From NCBI GenBank assembly GCA_963727895.1, contig CAVSHT010000009.1, positions 64,001 through 128,000 of the forward strand: a stretch of 64,000 nucleotides of DNA, read 5' to 3'. The DNA comes from an uncultured Methanosarcinaceae archaeon (GTDB taxonomy: Archaea > Halobacteriota > Methanosarcinia > Methanosarcinales > Methanosarcinaceae). This document shows positions 1,040-49,333 of the stretch, in pieces; within the stretch, counting starts at the first letter, position 1, and every line of letters starts with the position of its first letter. A program made the translations under genes and the position numbers. The notes under the pieces were generated by a model. The model saw nothing but the letters and a program-made list of their open reading frames with translations, did not search any database and had not been told where the DNA came from.

Positions 1040-1420
1040 TAAGTATACTATAAAGAATAATCCTTTGAAAAATGAAAGTTTACCCTGACCTTTAGGCAAA
1101 CTTTCTTTACATCTTTTTTAACAATTAAGATTTAATTCAGTGCCTTTACTCAAGGATAATGTCCTGAATTTTTAGGCTAAAAACGAGTAAATAAAGATTA
1201 TCCGAGATAAAATTATTAAATAAACCAATTTTGAATAGATCCGAAATTGAATAAAACGTTAAAAACATTTTGTTATGAGTTCAGAATCCAGATGGAGTAA
1301 TTAAGAAACATGGCAAAGCTGACCCATAGGATATAAGGAAATAGTAGATAAGAAGCTATTTTGGAAATTTTTCTGAATATTAATATTGTTACAAATATAG
1401 AAAGCCAGAGAAAAATAATT

Positions 1421-13227: not shown

Positions 13228-14619
13228 ATGAGTAAATCGAAAGAACAAGACTCTCTTATACTAGATCATATTCTGAATGAAACTCAGTATAACAATGTTC
13301 CAAAAAGTTCCGGAGTCTTTATCAGTTACAGTCACGACTCTAGTAAACATGAAGAATGTGTGTTGCAACTTTCAAATCGCTTATGTAGAGAAGGAATTGA
13401 TTCTAATATAGATCAGTACGAAACCTCTCCTTCTGAAGGATGGCCCCGCTGGATGGTCAATCAAATAGATGAAGCTGATTATGTTCTTATAGTATGTACA
13501 GAGAACTATGAAAAACGATTTAAGGGTAAAGAGGAAGCTGGAAAGGGACTTGGAGCAAAGTGGGAAGGCGCGATTATTACACAAGAGCTATACTACTCTG
13601 AAGCTAACAATAAATGTATCCCTATTGTATTTTCTCTTGAAAATTCAAAATATATTCCTTCTATTCTAAAACATGTTACTTACTACAACCCTAGTACAGA
13701 GGAAGATTACATTAAGCTTTATAGCCGTCTTACAGGTCAAAAACTTATTGAAAAACCAGCTATTGGAAAATTAAGGCAGATACCACCAAAAAACATATCT
13801 TCCGTTTTAAGTGCAGAAGATAAAGAAGAAAATTTAATTGAGAGCAAAAAGAAACCTGTAATTGGGAAATTAAGGGAAATAAATAGTGAATCTCAGAGCC
13901 CCAAGATTCCTGAAACTTTCATTAGTGATATTACAGGTATGGAATTTGTTTTGATCCCTGCAGGTGAATTTATGATGGGATCACAAAAGAAAGCTGGTGT
14001 TTTAAATTTTCTAAGGAACTCTACTGAATCCCCAGCTCATGAAGTAACCATTGAGCATCATTTCTATCTCGGTAAATTTCCAGTTACTCAGAAACAGTGG
14101 ATTGCAGTAATGAGTGAAAATTCTTCTAAAATTAAAGACAATAACCGACCAGTAGAAAATATTTTATGGGAGGAAACTCAAGAATTTATTAAACAACTCA
14201 ATGAAATAGAAGGAACTGACAAGTACCGTTTGCCCTCTGAGACTGAATGGGAATACGCCTGTGGAGCTGGTACACAAACAAAGTATTCGTTTGGAGATAA
14301 TGATTCAAAGCTTAATGAATATGCGTGGTACTTTGGTTCCAGTACTACTCAACCAATCGGCAAAAAAGAACCAAATCCCTGGGGTCTTTATGACATGTAT
14401 GGTAATGTGTTCGAACGTGTTCAGGACACTTGGCATAGTAACTATATTGGTGCTCCTTCAGATGGTAGCGCACGGAAAGATAGGGATTCCTCCTGCCAAC
14501 CGATTCGTGGTGGTGCTTTTCATAGTTTTGCAAGAAATTGCAATTCAGCATATCGTTTAAGCGCTAAATTTACTTCTCGAAAAAATGATATCGGGCTTCG
14601 TCTTTTAAGAGAACTATAA
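13228..14619 (+). CDS. SEFIR/TIR domain + FGE-sulfatase (CLec-fold) domain protein
   Basis: VFISYSHDS..H...V..L..RL...GID...DQY, G..WEG (SEFIR); IPAGEF.MGS, RLPSE.EWEYAC, NPWGLYDM.GNV.E, RGG, GLRL (FGE). Confidence 0.9.
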   Translation: MSKSKEQDSLILDHILNETQYNNVPKSSGVFISYSHDSSKHEECVLQLSNRLCREGIDSNIDQYETSPSEGWPRWMVNQIDEADYVLIVCTENYEKRFKGKEEAGKGLGAKWEGAIITQELYYSEANNKCIPIVFSLENSKYIPSILKHVTYYNPSTEEDYIKLYSRLTGQKLIEKPAIGKLRQIPPKNISSVLSAEDKEENLIESKKKPVIGKLREINSESQSPKIPETFISDITGMEFVLIPAGEFMMGSQKKAGVLNFLRNSTESPAHEVTIEHHFYLGKFPVTQKQWIAVMSENSSKIKDNNRPVENILWEETQEFIKQLNEIEGTDKYRLPSETEWEYACGAGTQTKYSFGDNDSKLNEYAWYFGSSTTQPIGKKEPNPWGLYDMYGNVFERVQDTWHSNYIGAPSDGSARKDRDSSCQPIRGGAFHSFARNCNSAYRLSAKFTSRKNDIGLRLLREL

Positions 14620-42968: not shown

Positions 42969-43201
42969 AATTTTAGTTACTCTTTAGTTCGAAGTTTCAG
43001 TTATCTAATTCACTTTTTCCTGAGGCTTCGTGAGAATCCTTTTAATTTGTTTTTCAAAACTTTTAAATCTTATTTTGTCACTTAACTTTTTAATGACAGG
43101 ATTTTACAAATACAAGCAGACAGGTTATATTTATTAACTATGTAGACGTTCTTTATTGAAGTATAGTAAAAGATCCTTATTCTACAAGATAAACGATTTT
43201 T

Positions 43202-44194
43202 ATGTCCCGATTTAATCCAATCCTGGCTTTAAGGGCTCTTTGGCAAATTCGAGTACAAAAACGTCCTTTTGTGATGTCACATGGCGTAAATGCTCGCTGC
43301 AATATGCGCTGTAAATTCTGTGAGTACTGGAAGGAAACTGGAGAAGAGCCGACTAAAGAAGAGATTTTTAAATTGTTAGACGACGCAAAAGAATTTGGAA
43401 TAGGAGTCTACAATGCCTGGACTGTAGAACCTCTTCTTAGAGAAGATCTACCCCAAATTATGGCACATGCCAAAGAACTTGGAATGATCACTTCCATGGT
43501 CACAAATGGAAAACTGCTCTATGAAAGAGCAGAAGAGTTGAAGGACGTGGACTTTCTTTCAGTGTCAGTAGATGGGATAGAAAGTTATAAAGAAATTCGT
43601 AAGATGGACTTTGAAACTCTGCTGAAAGGCTTAAAAAAAGCCATTGAAGTGAGAAAGATCCAAAAAAATAGGAATCCTATTTTGATGAACTGTGTACTCA
43701 CAGGAAAAAATCTGGACGATATCGAGACTCTGATATTACTTGCAAAAAAGCTGGGAGTAAAAGTTTCATTTGAACCTGTCCATGAGTTTCCAGGTATCAG
43801 TGAGGAGATCTGGAACGAAATTGGAATCCGTGATATGGAAAAATTCCGCAAAACAGTTGACCGCATAATAGAATTTAAGAAACAACATTACCCTATAATT
43901 AATTCCATAACATACCTCAAAATGGTTCGAGACGGAGAAATGGACTATAAATGCAGAGCCAGTGGAGTTATTATAAATGTGACACACGACGGCACTCTGG
44001 AAACCTGCCGTGTACATAATGAACCCCTTGGAAATGTGATATGGGACGGCTTCGAAAGTGTCTGGGAAAACTCGGAAGAACACAGAAAGGAAATTGTCAA
44101 AAATTGCAGTGGCTGCCTTTTTTTTGGATATACGGAAAACAGTTTGATGCAGAGCTTTAATCCTGAAGTTCTGATGCATTACGAGTGGATGTAA
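43202..44194 (+). CDS. Radical SAM protein with C-terminal SPASM/twitch-like Cys domain
   Basis: CNMRCKFC, EPLLR, TNG, SVDG, C-terminal C..C. Confidence 0.88.
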   Translation: MSRFNPILALRALWQIRVQKRPFVMSHGVNARCNMRCKFCEYWKETGEEPTKEEIFKLLDDAKEFGIGVYNAWTVEPLLREDLPQIMAHAKELGMITSMVTNGKLLYERAEELKDVDFLSVSVDGIESYKEIRKMDFETLLKGLKKAIEVRKIQKNRNPILMNCVLTGKNLDDIETLILLAKKLGVKVSFEPVHEFPGISEEIWNEIGIRDMEKFRKTVDRIIEFKKQHYPIINSITYLKMVRDGEMDYKCRASGVIINVTHDGTLETCRVHNEPLGNVIWDGFESVWENSEEHRKEIVKNCSGCLFFGYTENSLMQSFNPEVLMHYEWM

Positions 44195-44416
44195 ATCCCG
44201 AGTCCCGTCTCGGGAGGACGGCGCCCTTTTCGCTCACTTCGTTCGCTCAAGAGGACTGAACCCGGGGGCAAGAAAAGATATTTTTTAAATTTAGAGCGCT
44301 CAGCACCTCAGTCCCCAGCACCTCAGTCCCGGCGGCTTCGCACGCTTCGTGCCTTCGGGCTTCGCCGAAAAATTACCTACTCCCAAAGCAGTGTAAAGTG
44401 GTAAAGTCGAAAGTGG
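44195..44416. repeat. GC-rich intergenic palindrome and tandem-repeat cluster
   Basis: 15-bp tandem CAGCACCTCAGTCCC x2 (44301-44330), GCACG-CTT-CGTGC hairpin, repeated AAAGTG. Confidence 0.6.
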
Positions 44417-45675
44417 TTACAATTTCCTCAGAAGACGCAAGCCAACGAAGGCGGAGCGGTCGTCGGTGCCGACCCAGCGGTAAGCTGACCGGCAGTACCC
44501 GGCAGAGATGATCCAGCCGCCACCACGTATCACACGGGCGGGGCTATCTCCATCTTCCCAAGCACTACCATCAGAAGGAGCTCCTTCATAATTATTATAC
44601 CATCTGTCCTGAACCCACTCCCAAACAGTTCCATGCATGTCATAAAGGCCCCATAGATTTGGCATCTTTTGTCCAACTGGATGAATTTCACTTCCAGAGT
44701 TATCACTATACCATGCATAATCCCCAAGCTTCGATTCATCATCCCAGAAGAAATACCTTGTTATTGTCCCGGCACGGCACGCGTATTCTCACTCAGCTTC
44801 GGAAGGTGAGCCCATTGAAAAATTTCCGGCTGGGATCAGTACGAAGTCCATTTCTGTAAAAGGACTGGTGAAGGTTTTTGGTATTTCTTGATCTTTGAAA
44901 ACTCTTGGAGTTTCTTGTTCCCTGAATTTCACTAAAACAGGTGAGTATTCGAGTTCTTCATTTTCCAGGTAACATTGGACTGTGTTAATATATGTTTTAA
45001 CACTTATTTTACCTTTTAGAAGATCTTCTAAAGAACTATTAATTTCTTTGTCAGTATCAGTTAATTCTCCTGGTTTCTCATAACCATCAACAAGAACAAT
45101 CATGGATATATTGTAGACATCAATTGGAAGCTCTTTTCTGATTATTCTAGCCAATTTGCGTTTCTTCCTCTTGAAATCCTGCTCTTTGACCTTTAAGGGA
45201 TTCTTTCCAATGAGAACCTTTCCTTCATTATCGACGAAAATAAAAGGAACTTGTGAATATCCAATAGTTTTTTCATAAACATAATTATAAAGATCATCAA
45301 GATTTATGTCGCCGTTATTATCACCAGCAACAGCTCCGCTTTTTAGTCCTTCGACAAAATAATATGTAAAAACACCATTCTCCAGTTTTTCATCTTCTTT
45401 TGCTACATCGAACTCACTAGATGCAGAGAGTATAACAGTACCTGATCCAGAAGACTTAGAAATAATTTCTTTTAAATTATTGCCTTTTATGCTTGCAGCT
45501 CCACTGTAACAGCAATCGAGAACTACAACAGTCTTGCAGCTTGAAGCATCTATACACTTCCTGACCAATGAATAATTCAGAGACGTGGGAATTAAACTAT
45601 CCATCTTCGTATTTTTAAATAATAGACACAGATCATGTTGAGAGTCAGGTTCGCCGTGGCCTGAAAAGTAAATCA
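44417..45675 (-). pseudogene. Caspase-like (peptidase C14) + FGE-sulfatase/CLec protein, disrupted
   Basis: LIYFSGHG and LDCCYSG catalytic dyad, GVFTY; FGE motifs; 5' end cut by IS1; in-frame TGA at 44789; internal deletion. Confidence 0.85.
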
Positions 45676-46415
45676 GGTATTGTTAACTAAACATATTTAA
45701 CTCTTTATTTATGTATTTCATCAATAGAATAACCGAGTACTTTAGCATTTCAAGACTTTTTGTATAACACTTTGTCTTTCTTCTCAACCTTGCTAGAAAA
45801 TGCCTCAATATGCTGTTATATCCTTCAACTGTAAATGTTTCTGCTTTTGATTGAGTATGAATCGTTTCAGGAAGAAACTCTGCATATGCTCTCCAGTGAT
45901 CTGTCATCACTTCTCCAATCTCTTTTTTCTTCAATTTTTCCCAGAGTAGTTTTCCAGTTTCCGTTCCTCTGCTACCAAAAGAGCAGTTGATGAACTTTTT
46001 CCCAACTCTATCAACAGCAATCCAGATCCAGCAATATTTTTTTTGTTACCGATGTAAGTGTGCATTTCATCCATTTCAACAATAGATATCTCATTTTCAC
46101 TTTTTAGGTCCTCTAACTCCTGACCAAATTTCTTTATCCATCTTTAGACAGAAAACATGACTCACCCCTAAAAACCGTCCTATTGAGCGAAAGCCCAATC
46201 CTTCAAGGTAAAGTTGTAAAGCCTGTCTTTTAACAGAGGCGGAAAAATCAGTTGATTTTAGCTCGACTGTATAGTTATAGCCACAATCAGAGCATTTGTA
46301 CCGTTGACGCCCGCCAACTATACCGTTTTTTTGTGACTAGAACTATTACATTTTGGGCAATTCATGAAGAAATATATGTTATAAGCATATATATCTATTT
46401 TTTATTACCAATGCC
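45676..46415 (-). mobile_element. IS1-family element (copy 4, full length about 740 bp)
   Basis: Ends GGTATTG / CCAATGCC; InsA zinc finger, A8 slippery run, InsB. Confidence 0.92.
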
Positions 46416-46832
46416 AAAAGTAAATTTATTTGGTAGATATATGATTTACTTTTTCATATTTACCGAGAAATAGCACTTTTAACAATACTATCTTCTTCAG
46501 ATTCAATTTCATAAAGACATGTAAATTTAGTGAAACGTTAATTTTGAAGTACCAGTTTGTGAATATGAATAGATTATTTAATAGTTTTCTATAAAATAAT
46601 ATATATATTTGTTGAAAGTTTCAAATTAAAAAGATAGGATAAGAATAGAATAGAGATTTAATACTTATTCACTTACAATTATTAATAAATAAGGAAACGT
46701 AGACTTATAGTTGGATAAAAAGATAATAGTTAAAACTTAAAATTGAAAATTAATAGTTAAAATCTGGAATTCCAGAAATTAACCGTGAATAGAGTACAGA
46801 TAGCTAAATACTCTTTTTAATTCCAAATGATT

Positions 46833-48321
46833 TTAATTCAGCAACCTTAGGGCTTCGGCTATAGACCATCTGACTTCGGGATCGGGATCGTTTAAGTTTT
46901 TGAGAAAAGAGGATGTTGCTTTTGGGTCACCTATTTTTGCAAGAGCATCAGCAGCATATCGTCTTACCCAAAGTCAGCAGCATATCGTCTTACCCAAGGG
47001 TTGCTGTCGTTAAGAGCTTCAATAAGCGCATCAACTGCTTTTCGGCTGCCAATATTTCCAAGGGCATAGACTGTGGTGATTCGGAGTTCAGAATCGTTTT
47101 CGGTTAGTATTTTTAGAAGATTGTCTACCGCTTTATCAGCTTTGAGGGCTCCTAAAGAATACGCTGCGGCGTTTCTTACTTCAGGATTTTCATCACTCAG
47201 GCACTTGAGAAGTGAATCTACTAATTCTGGATCTCCCAATTTTCCAAGAGATTCGATAGCACACTGTCTAAGTTCAGGGTTTTATCTTTTAATTTATGTA
47301 CAAGGACTTCAGTTGCTTTTTTACTGCCAAAGCTTCCTATAGCCAATAAAATTTGTCTCTGCAATTCCGGAGAACTTTTATCCAATCTTGTGATTAGTGC
47401 TTCTTCAGCTTTTTCATCACCGAGAATTCCTAGAGAACGGATTGCAGCTATCCTGACTTCAGGAACTTTGTCGTCCAGGCTTTTAATTAAAGGTTCAATC
47501 GCCCGTTGATCTTTAAGGTTTCCTAGAGATTCTATTGCACATGCTCGGAATGTAGGATCTTTATCTACAGTTAACCGTTTAATTAACGGCACTACTGCAT
47601 TTTCGGTTCCAATATAACCTAGAGATCTGACTGCAGCTATTCTTACTCCAGAGTCATTGTCATCTAAAAGCTCAAATAGTGCTCCTTCTGCTTTTTTGCT
47701 TCTAACCTGTCCTAGAACCTTGGCTGCAATTTTCCTGACTTCTGGATGTTCGTCGTCCAGTGCTCTTATACAAAATTTTATATCCTTTTCATTCTGTTTT
47801 AATGAATTAACAGGATTTCCTTCCTGTTCTTTAAGAATATTTGAAATATAATAGAATTTTTCAGACGAAGTTTTCAAACCCGAAACGTTACTTAAAAGGT
47901 TCATGGAAGAGTAAACAATAGCCACAAGGGACAGAACCATTGAAATGAGAGAGGAGATCAACAAAAGTTGCATCTTGGTTTTGGAAAAAGAGCCAAGGCT
48001 AAAAACAATCAGTATCAATCCGTTAAAATAGATTGTACCTGCTGCAGTATAGGACACTATTTTAAGAGGCGGTTTTATCCTATTGGCAATCGAATTGGTA
48101 TCATCTTTTTTGCTTTGCAGGGAAATTGTAAAGATAGCAATGAATACGGCATATAATGCAGCTACAGATTGCATTACCGTTGATGGAAGCCAGAAAGTAT
48201 TCCCAGAGCTTGCAGAAGTACCTGCATTTTCATTTCCTGATAGTGTAAAATAGCTCAAAATAACCAGAGCAAATAAAAAGAAAACTTCAAGCTTGTAAGT
48301 TTTCAGATCAGTCAGTTTCAT
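46833..48321 (-). pseudogene. Membrane-anchored HEAT/PBS-lyase repeat protein, frameshifted
   Basis: N-terminal TM helices; repeated L.D..PEVR.AA..LG; frameshift near 47280 and a 26-bp duplication at 46948-46997. Confidence 0.82.
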
Positions 48322-48465
48322 TCTACAGGCTGCTTGTACTCAAAGAATTATATAATAATTCCGCTGAGTCAAGTTCCGATTCACTTTCTAAATAGAACCA
48401 TGATAAAAGCAATTAATCTTTATTAAAATGGAAGTCTATAAGTTAAAAAGTAAATGATTTAGGGT

Positions 48466-48530
48466 TCATTGCTTGTTTTATTTCATTGCTCACGTTAGTT
48501 CATTGCCTGTTTTAATTCATTGCCTGAATT
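48466..48530. repeat. Four imperfect 17-18 bp tandem units beginning TTCATTGC
   Basis: TTCATTGC recurs four times at regular spacing. Confidence 0.7.
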
Positions 48531-48544
48531 TGTATAATTATCAT

Positions 48545-49333
48545 TTATACAGTTTTTATTACGATTTGATCCCCACTTTTTAGTCCGAACTGAAGTGCAG
48601 CATTTCCTTTATTTACTGCAATTTCCAGAAAACCGTGACTGCCTATAAGAGCAAGAGGTTCTTCTCGTCCTACAAAACCATAAGTCTGAACAAAGGAAAT
48701 TCTTCTCCCATTTACTTCTATCTGCGAACCAAAAGTAGAGAACTTAAAAACTACTTCTTGCGGGATATTGGTAACTATATTTCCAAAGCTGTCTGCAAAA
48801 ATAATCTCGCCTATAAGGAAAGGTCCATCAATTCCGAAATTTTCAAAATCAAGATTCACGAAATCCGAAATTCGTGGTCCTACATCTTCTATAGGTATAC
48901 CTTTTGAGATGTGAGCTCCCACAGGCGCAAAAATGTCCCTTCCGTGGAAAGTTGAAGAAATTCCTGATTTAAGCATAAGTTCAGGATTTGTGATTTCGTA
49001 TACTTCAATTTCACCAAGTCGGCGCGCTGCAGGGATCAGAAGCCCATTGTCAGGGCCAACAAAAAATTGCTCTCTTCCTTCGTTACTTGCTTTTATAGCA
49101 AGAGCACGGCGTGAAGTCCCAACTCCGGGATCTACGACGCCAATATGTATGGTGCCCTCTGGAAAATACTGAACAAGTGAATAGAGGGCAAAAGCTCCTT
49201 CCCGGATTCCAGCCTGCCGGATGGAATGAGTGATATCAATAATCTGTACCTCTGGATTAATTCCAAGAATAACGGCTTTCATGGATGCAAGATAAAGGTC
49301 TCCAAAATCTGTAGTCAAGGAAATCACAGGCAT
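48545..49333 (-). CDS. SAM hydroxide adenosyltransferase (DUF62; chlorinase/fluorinase family)
   Basis: LTTDFG, VVDPGVGT.R, GPDNG, STFHGRDIF, D.FGN. Confidence 0.92.
   Translation of the reverse strand: MPVISLTTDFGDLYLASMKAVILGINPEVQIIDITHSIRQAGIREGAFALYSLVQYFPEGTIHIGVVDPGVGTSRRALAIKASNEGREQFFVGPDNGLLIPAARRLGEIEVYEITNPELMLKSGISSTFHGRDIFAPVGAHISKGIPIEDVGPRISDFVNLDFENFGIDGPFLIGEIIFADSFGNIVTNIPQEVVFKFSTFGSQIEVNGRRISFVQTYGFVGREEPLALIGSHGFLEIAVNKGNAALQFGLKSGDQIVIKTV

What the first reader, a model, noticed from the sequence alone, without database searches (positions are those of the whole stretch)
44330..44545. DGR variable-region signature at the 3' end of a caspase-CLec gene (remote target, no RT in window)
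Seen: the end of the FGE-sulfatase domain (SPARVIRGGGWIISAGYCRSAYRWVGTDDRSAFVG, 44441-44545) turns abruptly GC-rich in an AT-rich gene. 22 of these 35 codons end in C, including nine in a row (GTC GGC ACC GAC GAC CGC TCC GCC TTC), concentrated at the non-conserved positions between RGG.W, CRSA.R and G.R. After the stop come pyrimidine-rich repeats (CCACTTTCGACTTTACCACTTTACACT) and a GC hairpin cluster. Known: DGRs mutate template adenines, so AAC codons become NNC in the C-terminal CLec/FGE region, and targets often carry an IMH and a downstream hairpin. Inference: this is, or recently was, a hypermutated target served in trans by an RT/template repeat elsewhere, i.e. a diversified ligand sensor fused to a caspase-like protease in a methanogen.
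Basis: partly seen in the sequence, partly recalled or inferred. Interest (0 to 1): 0.88.

Follow-up and report, generated by a model that had tools for sequence, protein, structure and literature searches.

The report
Fossil hypermutation cassette in broken Methanosarcina gene
The GC-rich tail of this broken caspase-lectin gene was once rewritten by a diversity-generating retroelement, but this archaeon's genome no longer holds that retroelement, so the tail is a frozen relic, not a working sensor.

Summary
On the minus strand, 44441-44545 encodes the quoted peptide; 22 of 35 codons end in C against 59 of 379 in the rest of the gene, with a run of nine.

It is a true DGR variable region (VR, 44427-44547). 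One congener (G030) carries target-HRDC-Avd-RT-template repeat at the syntenic locus, and two other Methanosarcinales genomes carry the same cassette. Against sites invariant in all three templates, the window VR differs at 20 of 26 adenines but 5 of 64 other bases. Across 23 homologues, template AAY codons are near-saturated at positions 1-2, while position 3 stays C or T.

The "served in trans" reading is not supported. No DGR-type RT, Avd or template was found in this 84%-complete genome. The gene is dead: an IS1 element borders a 5' truncation, 231 nt of the lectin domain are deleted, and an in-frame TGA replaces a Trp codon.

In the genus, 43 of 59 genomes match this tail region, 24 across the whole VR. 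Only 1 of 59 has the cognate cassette.

Verdict: an orphaned, frozen VR in a pseudogene, and a new archaeal member of a known kind. This scan has noted orphan VRs before on other DNA.

The parts
44427..44547 (-).
   Evidence: Alignments. 20 of 26 invariant template adenines are changed against 5 of 64 other sites. Composition is A 0.107, GC 0.65.
44417..45675 (-). Remnant of a caspase (Peptidase_C14) + FGE-sulfatase/C-type-lectin-fold gene; a pseudogene
   Evidence: Translation, Pfam, and 95% nt identity to the ortholog in G017, whose ORF is intact up to its contig end, over 44801-45675.
44426..44806 (-). C-terminal part of the FGE-sulfatase (C-type lectin fold) domain; the N-terminal 112 profile positions are missing
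   Evidence: PF03781, E 8.1e-29, residues 293-419 matching profile 113-255 of 255.
44789..44791 (-). In-frame TGA at the Trp codon of the conserved AEWEYA motif
   Evidence: One search gives PSEAE*EYACRAG; the orthologs read PSEAEWEYACRAG.
44801..44806 (-). Junction of a 231-nt (77-codon) internal deletion in the lectin domain, with about 6 nt of overlap between the two flanking alignments
   Evidence: blastn against the G017 ortholog: L135 1502-2379 and 2611-2724 map to adjacent window positions.
45239..45676 (-). Caspase-domain remnant. SGHG and DCCYSG are present; about the first 94 codons of the ortholog are missing
   Evidence: PF00656, 22.2 bits, profile 74-223 of 233. tblastn with the G017 protein starts at its residue 95.
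45676..46417 (.). IS1-family insertion sequence (about 740 bp) abutting the truncated 5' end of the gene; the transposase fragment ORF is 45683-45934 (-)
   Evidence: PF03400, E 4.5e-10. 48 matches in the genome, 43 of them near full length beyond the window's own copy, 91-96% identical.
44396..44416 (-). Pyrimidine-rich ACTTT-repeat element directly after the stop codon, co-conserved with the VR
   Evidence: Occurs only twice in the genome, each time after a VR-bearing gene. Visible in most of 22 homologues and after the VRs of G154 and G230.
44301..44367 (-). Conserved GC-rich 3' element (core CGAAGCGTGCGAAGCCGCC at 44331-44349); 44301-44330 is a 15-nt tandem duplication that the relatives carry as a single copy
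   Evidence: Core occurs only after the two VR genes in the genome. 90% identical over 48 nt to the spacer between target and HRDC gene in G030. The fold is not exceptional.

Best explanation
The segment is an orphaned, frozen DGR variable region at the 3' end of a dead caspase-lectin gene. Shown: the lineage of this locus once carried a DGR of the type still seen in G030, G154 and G230, in the order target, HRDC gene, avd, RT, template repeat. Established for DGRs in general: the template RNA is reverse-transcribed with random misincorporation opposite adenines, and the cDNA replaces the last ~120 nt of the target. [quoted passage not shown] That accounts for the adenine-poor, GC-rich, C-ending codons in an AT-rich gene. 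Inferred: the cassette was then lost from this lineage, as from nearly all congeners, which froze the last-written sequence. The gene later decayed through IS1 insertion with 5' loss, a 231-nt deletion and a TGG-to-TGA change. Also inferred, by analogy with published bacterial systems: the intact protein was an immune-like sensor, with a lectin tip binding a ligand and a caspase-like protease as effector. The two conserved elements after the stop codon may be the target-side docking or termination signals of this DGR lineage.
For: (1) The G030 cassette lies at the syntenic locus, marked by the HEAT-repeat gene upstream. It has Avd (NF033474, 101.4 bits against a cut-off of 80), an HRDC domain (E 1.5e-20) and an RT with IGSLTSQ. 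Its template translates as SSNRVIRGGSWNNNARNCRSANRNRNDPGNRNNNLGFRLL. Against its own VR, 24 of 35 template adenines differ but only 1 of 89 other sites.
(2) The window VR against sites invariant in all three templates: 20 of 26 adenines changed, 5 of 64 others, Fisher P 1.5e-10.
(3) Across 23 homologous tails, column entropy is 1.57 bits at 35 template-A columns and 0.63 at 89 other columns. In the 93 columns upstream there is no adenine effect (0.41).
(4) At 12 template AAY codons, entropy is 1.78 and 1.64 bits at positions 1 and 2 and 0.75 at position 3. Position 3 is C or T in 270 of 275 cells. Upstream codons show the opposite pattern (0.29 and 0.71). The window's own codons at these sites end in C in 10 of 11 cases.
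(5) Against the syntenic ortholog in G017, 9 of 93 upstream sites, 7 of 88 VR non-A sites and 19 of 33 VR template-A sites differ.
(6) Nothing cognate was found in this genome. VR DNA finds only the VR of a broken paralogue. G030 cassette DNA finds only the VR and the 48-nt 3' element. RVT_1 finds three RT loci, all with QGG(I/M)ISP, which I recall as a group-II-like motif. The G030 RT scores at best E 1.4e-5 on those same loci. Avd gives 0 matches.
(7) Pseudogene lesions.
(8) Internal controls: two other FGE genes of this genome have AT-rich tails and no adenine bias (19 of 37 against 50 of 98, and 22 of 37 against 41 of 98).
(9) Freezing elsewhere: two species-level genomes (G018, G004) share the same VR, with 0 of 35 template-A and 1 of 89 other columns differing.
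Against: The assembly is only 84% complete, so absence of an RT and template is 'not found', not proven. The templates used are heterologous. The window VR is one codon shorter than all three, and 13 of 88 non-A sites differ from the G030 template, so its true template is unknown. One of 23 tails (L029) shows no significant adenine bias (13 of 35 against 22 of 89, P 0.19). VR non-A columns diverge somewhat more than upstream columns over all 253 pairs (0.254 against 0.178). The only cognate cassette in the genus may itself be impaired: it has an in-frame TAG in the RT and a 3-nt indel between VR and template. The non-coding 3' elements are still well conserved beside a dead gene, which could mean recent loss or some continuing role. 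There are no population data.
Confidence: 0.85

Rival explanations
1. Live remote target: a DGR (RT, Avd, template) sits in the unassembled ~16% of the genome or on a virus or plasmid, and still rewrites this VR in trans even though the gene is broken.
For: The assembly is 84% complete. The VR's 3' flanking elements are intact and 90% identical to those beside the G030 cassette. Remote targets are documented for DGRs: Roux 2021 notes its approach would miss them (passage seen), and Wu 2018 describes seven scattered Treponema targets (passage seen).
Against: No RT, Avd or template was found with four kinds of query. Only 1 of 59 congeners has the cognate cassette, including 0 of the other 38 genomes that are at least 90% complete. 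The syntenic slot where G030 keeps its cassette is empty here, and equally so in G003, G017 and G057. 5 of 64 invariant non-adenine sites have drifted.
Confidence: 0.07
2. No DGR involved: the GC-rich, variable tail reflects ordinary evolution of surface loops on a conserved lectin scaffold, through diversifying selection, gene conversion among paralogues or foreign origin of the 3' end.
For: RGG.W / CRSA.R / G.R is a general FGE-sulfatase scaffold. Template-A columns coincide with codon positions 1-2 of loop residues, so selection alone could inflate variability there.
Against: Third positions of the variable codons stay C or T in 270 of 275 cells, while positions 1-2 are near-saturated. This is the reverse of the upstream codons, in a gene where only 15.6% of codons end in C. 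A matching template with RT and Avd exists at the same locus in a congener. Two other FGE tails in this genome lack both the composition and the bias.
Confidence: 0.03
3. The VR module (tail plus 3' elements) was imported recently by recombination from another Methanosarcina that had an active DGR, so this lineage never hosted a DGR of its own.
For: The same locus carries different N-terminal domains in different species: caspase in G000 and G017, KAP NTPase in G003 and G030. This shows modular exchange. Roux 2021 proposes intragenic recombination for targets (passage seen).
Against: Upstream, VR non-A and downstream divergence from the G017 ortholog are similar (9 of 93, 7 of 88, 7 of 34). 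That gives no sign of a recent foreign block. The paralogue on C7 also carries the module.
Confidence: 0.05

Closest known systems
Treponema denticola TvpA and its HRDC-type DGR (PDB 2Y3C; 'architecture C' of Wu et al. 2018, PMC5758913)
   Same: The FGE-sulfatase-type C-type-lectin fold carries the VR at the extreme C-terminus. The lectin domain of an intact homologue (G023) matches 2Y3C at E 1.5e-31. The cognate cassette in G030 has an HRDC gene as well as avd. That combination is rare: 14 of 372 DGRs have HRDC genes, and about half of those also have avd (passage seen).
   Different: Archaeal host. The targets carry cytoplasmic-type effector domains (caspase, KAP NTPase) and are not lipoproteins (TvpA's lipoprotein nature is recalled). 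In this window the retroelement is gone and the gene is broken.
DGR-diversified lectin 'antigen sensors' and conflict systems of multicellular bacteria (Kaur et al. 2020, PMC7159879; Dore et al. 2023, bioRxiv 10.1101/2023.09.22.558884; Vallota-Eastman et al. 2020, PMC7517822)
   Same: A C-terminal FGS/CLec domain sits behind N-terminal caspase-like, TIR, KAP or STAND NTPase domains, always in the order effector then lectin. The link to aggregate-forming organisms also holds. Dore et al. raise the question of inactive remnants and describe IS-driven decay of DGR loci (passages seen). Of Vallota-Eastman I saw only the search listing and the start of the abstract.
   Different: Those papers describe bacteria. 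Kaur et al. mention Methanosarcina mazei only as one of few archaeal hosts of the conflict systems (passage seen), without a DGR. I did not test for the partner genes (MoxR-vWA, alpha/beta hydrolase, EACC1) that define their systems.
Bordetella phage BPP-1 Mtd DGR (prototype)
   Same: Adenine-specific template-to-VR information transfer into a C-type-lectin fold, with Avd as accessory (described in passages seen).
   Different: That is a phage tail-fibre target. Its defined IMH and downstream cruciform (Guo et al. 2011, PMC3240598; I saw only the listing and abstract start, the details are recalled) have no demonstrated counterpart here. The conserved 3' elements here are different sequences with no exceptional fold.
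Previously reported archaeal DGRs (Nanoarchaeota/DPANN and an ANME virus; Paul et al. 2015 and 2017, known to me only through citations seen)
   Same: DGRs do occur in archaea.
   Different: Those are DPANN or viral, with targets mostly lacking recognisable domains (Roux 2021 passage). Here the host is a cultivable-genus methanogen and the targets have caspase or KAP NTPase domains.

Membership tests
DGR variable region (target side) | VR at the 3' end of an ORF inside a C-type-lectin / FGE-sulfatase fold | tested here: met
   PF03781, E 8.1e-29, ending 2 residues before the C-terminus. The lectin domain of an intact homologue matches TvpA 2Y3C at E 1.5e-31.
DGR variable region (target side) | Differences from a template repeat fall at template adenines | tested here: met
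   20 of 26 adenines against 5 of 64 other sites, using sites invariant in three heterologous templates. 22 of 33 against 13 of 88 with the G030 template alone.
DGR variable region (target side) | AAY-to-NNY codon signature (positions 1-2 randomised, position 3 kept) | tested here: met
   Entropy 1.78, 1.64 and 0.75 bits at 12 AAY codons in 23 tails. The window has 10 of 11 such codons ending in C.
Complete/active DGR in this genome | Cognate template repeat in the same genome | tested here: not met
   VR DNA and G030 template DNA find only VRs in the 3.67-Mb, 84%-complete assembly.
Complete/active DGR in this genome | DGR-type reverse transcriptase ([I/L]GxxxSQ motif, recalled) | tested here: not met
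   RVT_1 hits fall at three loci, all with QGG(I/M)ISP. The G030 RT scores at best E 1.4e-5. 0 matches at E <= 1e-10.
Complete/active DGR in this genome | Accessory protein Avd | tested here: not met
   NF033474: no match in G000; 1 of 59 genomes in the genus, G030.
Complete/active DGR in this genome | Ongoing diversification (VR polymorphism among reads or strains) | not testable with these tools
   Two exact-pattern scans of metagenome contigs found 0 stretches. No reads are available.
DGR variable region (target side) | IMH-like 3' boundary and a downstream recognition structure | tested here: inconclusive
   In G030, VR/template identity ends at ...CGTCTTTTGAG, just before the stop. Two lineage-specific elements follow the stop and occur only after VR genes. 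The fold has z = -0.04, and only 1 of 21 predicted pairs shows a compensatory change in 3 sequences.
Caspase (Peptidase_C14) protease | Full domain with the His/Cys catalytic dyad | tested here: inconclusive
   The match is marginal and partial (22.2 bits, profile 74-223 of 233). SGHG and DCCYSG are visible, but that these are the catalytic motifs is recalled. About the first 94 codons are lost.
Kaur et al. 2020 conflict systems (VMAP/iSTAND ternary, EACC1-caspase) | Defining partner genes (MoxR-vWA pair, alpha/beta hydrolase next to the caspase, or EACC1) | not tested
   The neighbours here are a radical-SAM gene, IS1 and a HEAT-repeat protein. I made no search for the partner families.

The most novel reading that the evidence does not exclude
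The two strongly conserved non-coding elements after the stop codon, kept even beside dead genes and in RT-less genomes, are docking signals. A rare, horizontally roaming HRDC-Avd-RT-template cassette (chromosomal in 1 of 59 congeners, also present in two other Methanosarcinales genera) episodically rewrites lectin tips on caspase, KAP-NTPase and similar immune-like proteins across the genus. The 'orphan' VRs would then be dormant rather than fossil: a shared, mobile hypermutation service for an aggregate-forming archaeon.
Probability: 0.1. Interest if true: 0.72.

Novelty: new member of a known kind. Interest (0 to 1): 0.42.

Why it matters
For this window alone it matters little, because the feature is a relic in a pseudogene. 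The wider picture is of some interest. A non-DPANN, cultivable-genus archaeon (Methanosarcina, known for aggregates) turns out to have a DGR lineage whose targets are lectin-tipped caspase and KAP-NTPase proteins. That architecture has been proposed as hypermutating antigen sensors in multicellular bacteria.

In the genus, the written tails persist widely. 43 of 59 genomes match the tail region, and 24 match across the whole VR. The writer survives in only one. This is a clean natural series for asking what happens to a hypervariable receptor repertoire after the mutator is lost.

I found no report of a DGR in Methanosarcina in the texts searched: full-text searches, the Wu 2018 supplement, and 11 of 13 Roux 2021 supplement files. 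Unsearched supplements and subscription papers may hold one.

Tried and rejected
1. A template repeat in the own genome. I searched with VR DNA and with 2.2 kb of the G030 cassette including its template. Only VRs and the 48-nt 3' element were found.

2. The three RT loci of the own genome as DGR candidates. C11 is an RT next to a CRISPR-like array and a RAMP-like gene. C4 and C5 are group-II-intron-type and frameshifted. All have QGG(I/M)ISP, and none has SQ.

3. G049's DGR-type RT (32% identical to the G030 RT, NYTSQ motif). No repeat of 40 nt or more in its 3.5-kb locus, and no template-like match in 15.8 kb. It is unrelated to this VR family as far as I looked.

4. The hairpin claim. The DNA fold has z = -0.04. 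A 3-sequence consensus fold had a positive covariation term of 1.22 and 1 of 21 pairs compensatory. No structural claim is made.

5. A population-level test. Exact-pattern scans of metagenome contigs with the deletion-junction sequence and with the stop/3'-element sequence both gave 0 hits.

6. Other FGE tails of this genome as further VRs (window 13228-14619; C7:66814). They are AT-rich with no adenine bias, so I used them as negative controls. C16:14976 has a truncated tail.

7. Earlier notes of this scan for this genome: none.

8. Not analysed: the 8 further full-length VR matches that had no stored locus (second copies in G018, G005, G023 x2, G027, G058, G014, G045). They were left out of the 23-sequence alignment.

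Full report
**What is at the coordinates**

The feature lies on the minus strand. Translating 44417-45700 (-) gives a reading frame that ends ...DGDSPARVIRGGGWIISAGYCRSAYRWVGTDDRSAFVGLRLLRKL*. Pfam assigns its last 127 residues to FGE-sulfatase, the C-type-lectin fold used by many DGR targets, at E 8.1e-29. An upstream part matches Peptidase_C14 marginally.

- 22 of the 35 codons at 44441-44545 end in C, against 59 of 379 in the rest of the remnant (P about 3e-10).
- There is a run of nine C-ending codons, against a maximum of three elsewhere.
- Adenine is 10.5% against 33%.

GC reaches 0.68 at 44450-44549, while windows further into the gene mostly read 0.27-0.46.

**The gene is dead**

Three lesions are visible against the syntenic ortholog in G017. 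That ortholog is 95% identical in nucleotides over the caspase part, and its ORF is intact up to its contig end.

- Homology starts only at residue 95 of the ortholog and ends at window 45675. There a ~740-bp IS1-family element begins (45676-46417). Its transposase fragment matches PF03400, and the genome holds 43 further near-full-length copies. The first ~94 codons are not found anywhere in 43001-49000.
- 231 nt (77 codons) are missing between MGSPS and EAEWEYA. This is why Pfam sees only profile positions 113-255 of the lectin domain.
- The Trp codon of AEWEYA is TGA (44789-44791).

A second caspase-lectin paralogue on contig C7 is also fragmented.

**Is the tail a DGR variable region?**

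Searching the genus with the tail DNA found matches in 43 of 59 genomes. By my reading of the table, 24 of those span the whole VR.

One extra hit was decisive. In G030, a 124-nt stretch lies ~2 kb downstream of the homologous gene and covers exactly the variable part at 69% identity. That locus reads:
- target (KAP-NTPase + lectin);
- an HRDC-domain gene (PF00570, E 1.5e-20);
- avd (NF033474, 101.4 bits against a cut-off of 80);
- an RT with IGSLTSQ;
- a non-coding repeat translating as SSNRVIRGGSWNNNARNCRSANRNRNDPGNRNNNLGFRLL.

Against its own VR, 24 of 35 template adenines differ but only 1 of 89 other bases. This is a textbook DGR.

G030 shares the upstream HEAT-repeat gene with the window. 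G003 and G017 show the same locus next to the radical-SAM gene and the ribosomal-protein operon. The G030 cassette therefore sits in the slot that is empty in the window.

Two further Methanosarcinales genomes of other genera, G154 and G230, carry the same gene order. Their RTs are 69% and 59% identical to the G030 RT, and their template/VR mismatches fall overwhelmingly at adenines (28 of 35 against 6 of 104, and 18 of 44 against 2 of 92). The few others lie at the ends of the alignments.

**Tests on the window VR**

- At sites invariant in all three templates, the window VR is changed at 20 of 26 adenines and 5 of 64 other bases (Fisher P 1.5e-10).
- I aligned 23 tails: the window, its C7 paralogue and 21 congeners. 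Eight further full-length matches had no stored locus and were left out. Column entropy is 1.57 bits at the 35 template-A columns and 0.63 at the 89 others. The 93 columns upstream show no adenine effect.
- 22 of the 23 tails show the bias at P < 0.05. L029 does not (13 of 35 against 22 of 89).

Template adenines coincide with codon positions 1-2 of loop residues, so selection alone could mimic part of this. I therefore looked at codon positions directly:
- At the 12 template AAY codons, positions 1 and 2 are nearly saturated (1.78 and 1.64 bits).
- Position 3 has 0.75 bits and is C or T in 270 of 275 cells.
- Upstream codons show the normal opposite pattern (0.29 at positions 1-2, 0.71 at position 3).

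Ordinary diversifying selection does not hold third positions at C in a gene where 15.6% of codons end in C.

Two other FGE-domain genes of this genome serve as negative controls. One is a SEFIR/TIR-lectin gene at window 13228-14619. Both have AT-rich tails and no adenine bias.

**Timing (inference)**

Against the G017 ortholog, the window differs at 9 of 93 upstream sites, 7 of 88 VR non-adenine sites and 19 of 33 VR template-adenine sites. The two VRs were therefore written independently. The non-adenine drift is about as large as the flank divergence, so the last writing was not recent on that scale.

Two species-level genomes (G018, G004) share an identical VR. This is what freezing looks like.

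**Is anything still writing it?**

Nothing was found in this genome.
- VR DNA finds only the C7 paralogue's VR.
- G030 cassette DNA finds only the VR and a 48-nt 3' element.
- RVT_1 finds three RT loci, all of which read QGG(I/M)ISP, a motif I recall as group-II-like. One sits beside a CRISPR-like array, and two are frameshifted intron RTs.
- The G030 RT scores at best E 1.4e-5 on those same loci.
- Avd gives no match.

The assembly is 84% complete, so this is 'not found', not proof of absence. But the genus-wide picture agrees. The cognate RT and Avd occur in 1 of 59 genomes. One other genome (G049) has an unrelated DGR-type RT. In the order, 7 of 284 genomes have a DGR-type RT.

**The elements after the stop codon**

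Both CCACTTTCGACTTTACCACTT (44396-44416) and the GC-rich block with core CGAAGCGTGCGAAGCCGCC (44331-44349) occur in this genome only after the two VR-bearing genes. They recur after most of the 22 homologues. The first also follows the VRs of G154 and G230.

They belong to the VR module. Whether they are recognition signals, terminators or neither is open. The predicted fold is unexceptional, and covariation is lacking.

**Comparison with what is known**

Lectin-tipped proteins with caspase-like, TIR, KAP or STAND NTPase domains are published as DGR targets or conflict systems in multicellular bacteria. So are IS-driven decay and possible inactive remnants of such loci (Kaur 2020 and Dore 2023, passages seen). 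HRDC-containing cassettes are a rare but described architecture (Wu 2018).

The genus is Methanosarcina, going by the record title of the locus identical to G030.

I found no report of a DGR in this genus in the texts and supplements searched. Two Roux 2021 supplement files were not searched, and subscription papers are not held. Earlier notes of this scan describe orphan or frozen VRs in other, bacterial genomes, so the state itself is not new.

**Verdict**

'Served in trans' is unsupported, and the functional claim is wrong for this copy because it is a pseudogene. The feature is a new, archaeal member of a known kind. It is of modest interest in itself and of more interest as part of a genus-wide set of orphaned VRs.

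Noticed in passing
L044 (G030:C2) about 1140-1142, minus strand: The only cognate DGR RT in the genus has a single in-frame TAG between its two halves (...QVQAFS*KYRYFLKCD...). Methanosarcina decodes some TAG codons as pyrrolysine (recalled). This could be a nonsense mutation or a read-through point. The G230 RT has no internal stop and the G154 RT has one TGA.
   Followed up: partly
window 13228-14619 (+): An intact 463-aa SEFIR/TIR + FGE-sulfatase protein (PF08357, E 3.6e-17; PF13676, E 5.1e-13; PF03781, E 6.4e-40). It has the same effector-then-lectin syntax, but its tail is AT-rich (GC 0.38) and shows no template-adenine bias.
   Followed up: partly
window 45676-46417 and genome-wide: A ~740-bp IS1-family element is present in 43 further near-full-length copies (91-96% identical) in a 3.67-Mb assembly, an unusually heavy IS load.
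   Followed up: partly
L009 (G000:C11:157271-160906): A 364-aa RT (motif QGGIISP) lies next to a RAMP/Cas6-like gene and a repeat array that reads like a CRISPR when translated (FNPCFSGSCSRI repeated). This may be a CRISPR-associated RT.
   Followed up: no
locus A in G000, G017, G003, G030 (window 44417-48321; L057; L058; L044): The same chromosomal slot, between a HEAT-repeat gene and a radical-SAM gene, holds a caspase-lectin gene in two species and a KAP-NTPase-lectin gene in two others. The VR module is shared, so the effector domain has been swapped in front of a constant lectin tip.
   Followed up: partly
window 44301-44330: A perfect 15-nt tandem duplication (CAGCACCTCAGTCCC x2 on the + strand) lies inside the conserved 3' element. 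The relatives listed carry one copy.
   Followed up: no
L044 2566-2700 against 375-498: G030's own VR has one extra codon relative to its template near the 3' boundary (AAC TTC GTT against AAC CTT). The neighbouring VR is therefore not a perfect product of the present template.
   Followed up: partly
L045 (G001:C1, about 5203016-5203089), L046 (G038:C50:2391-2448), L047 (G010:C1:365089-365140): Isolated 50-75-nt matches (77-88% identity) to only the last part of the VR plus the post-stop element. These may be stubs of former targets.
   Followed up: no
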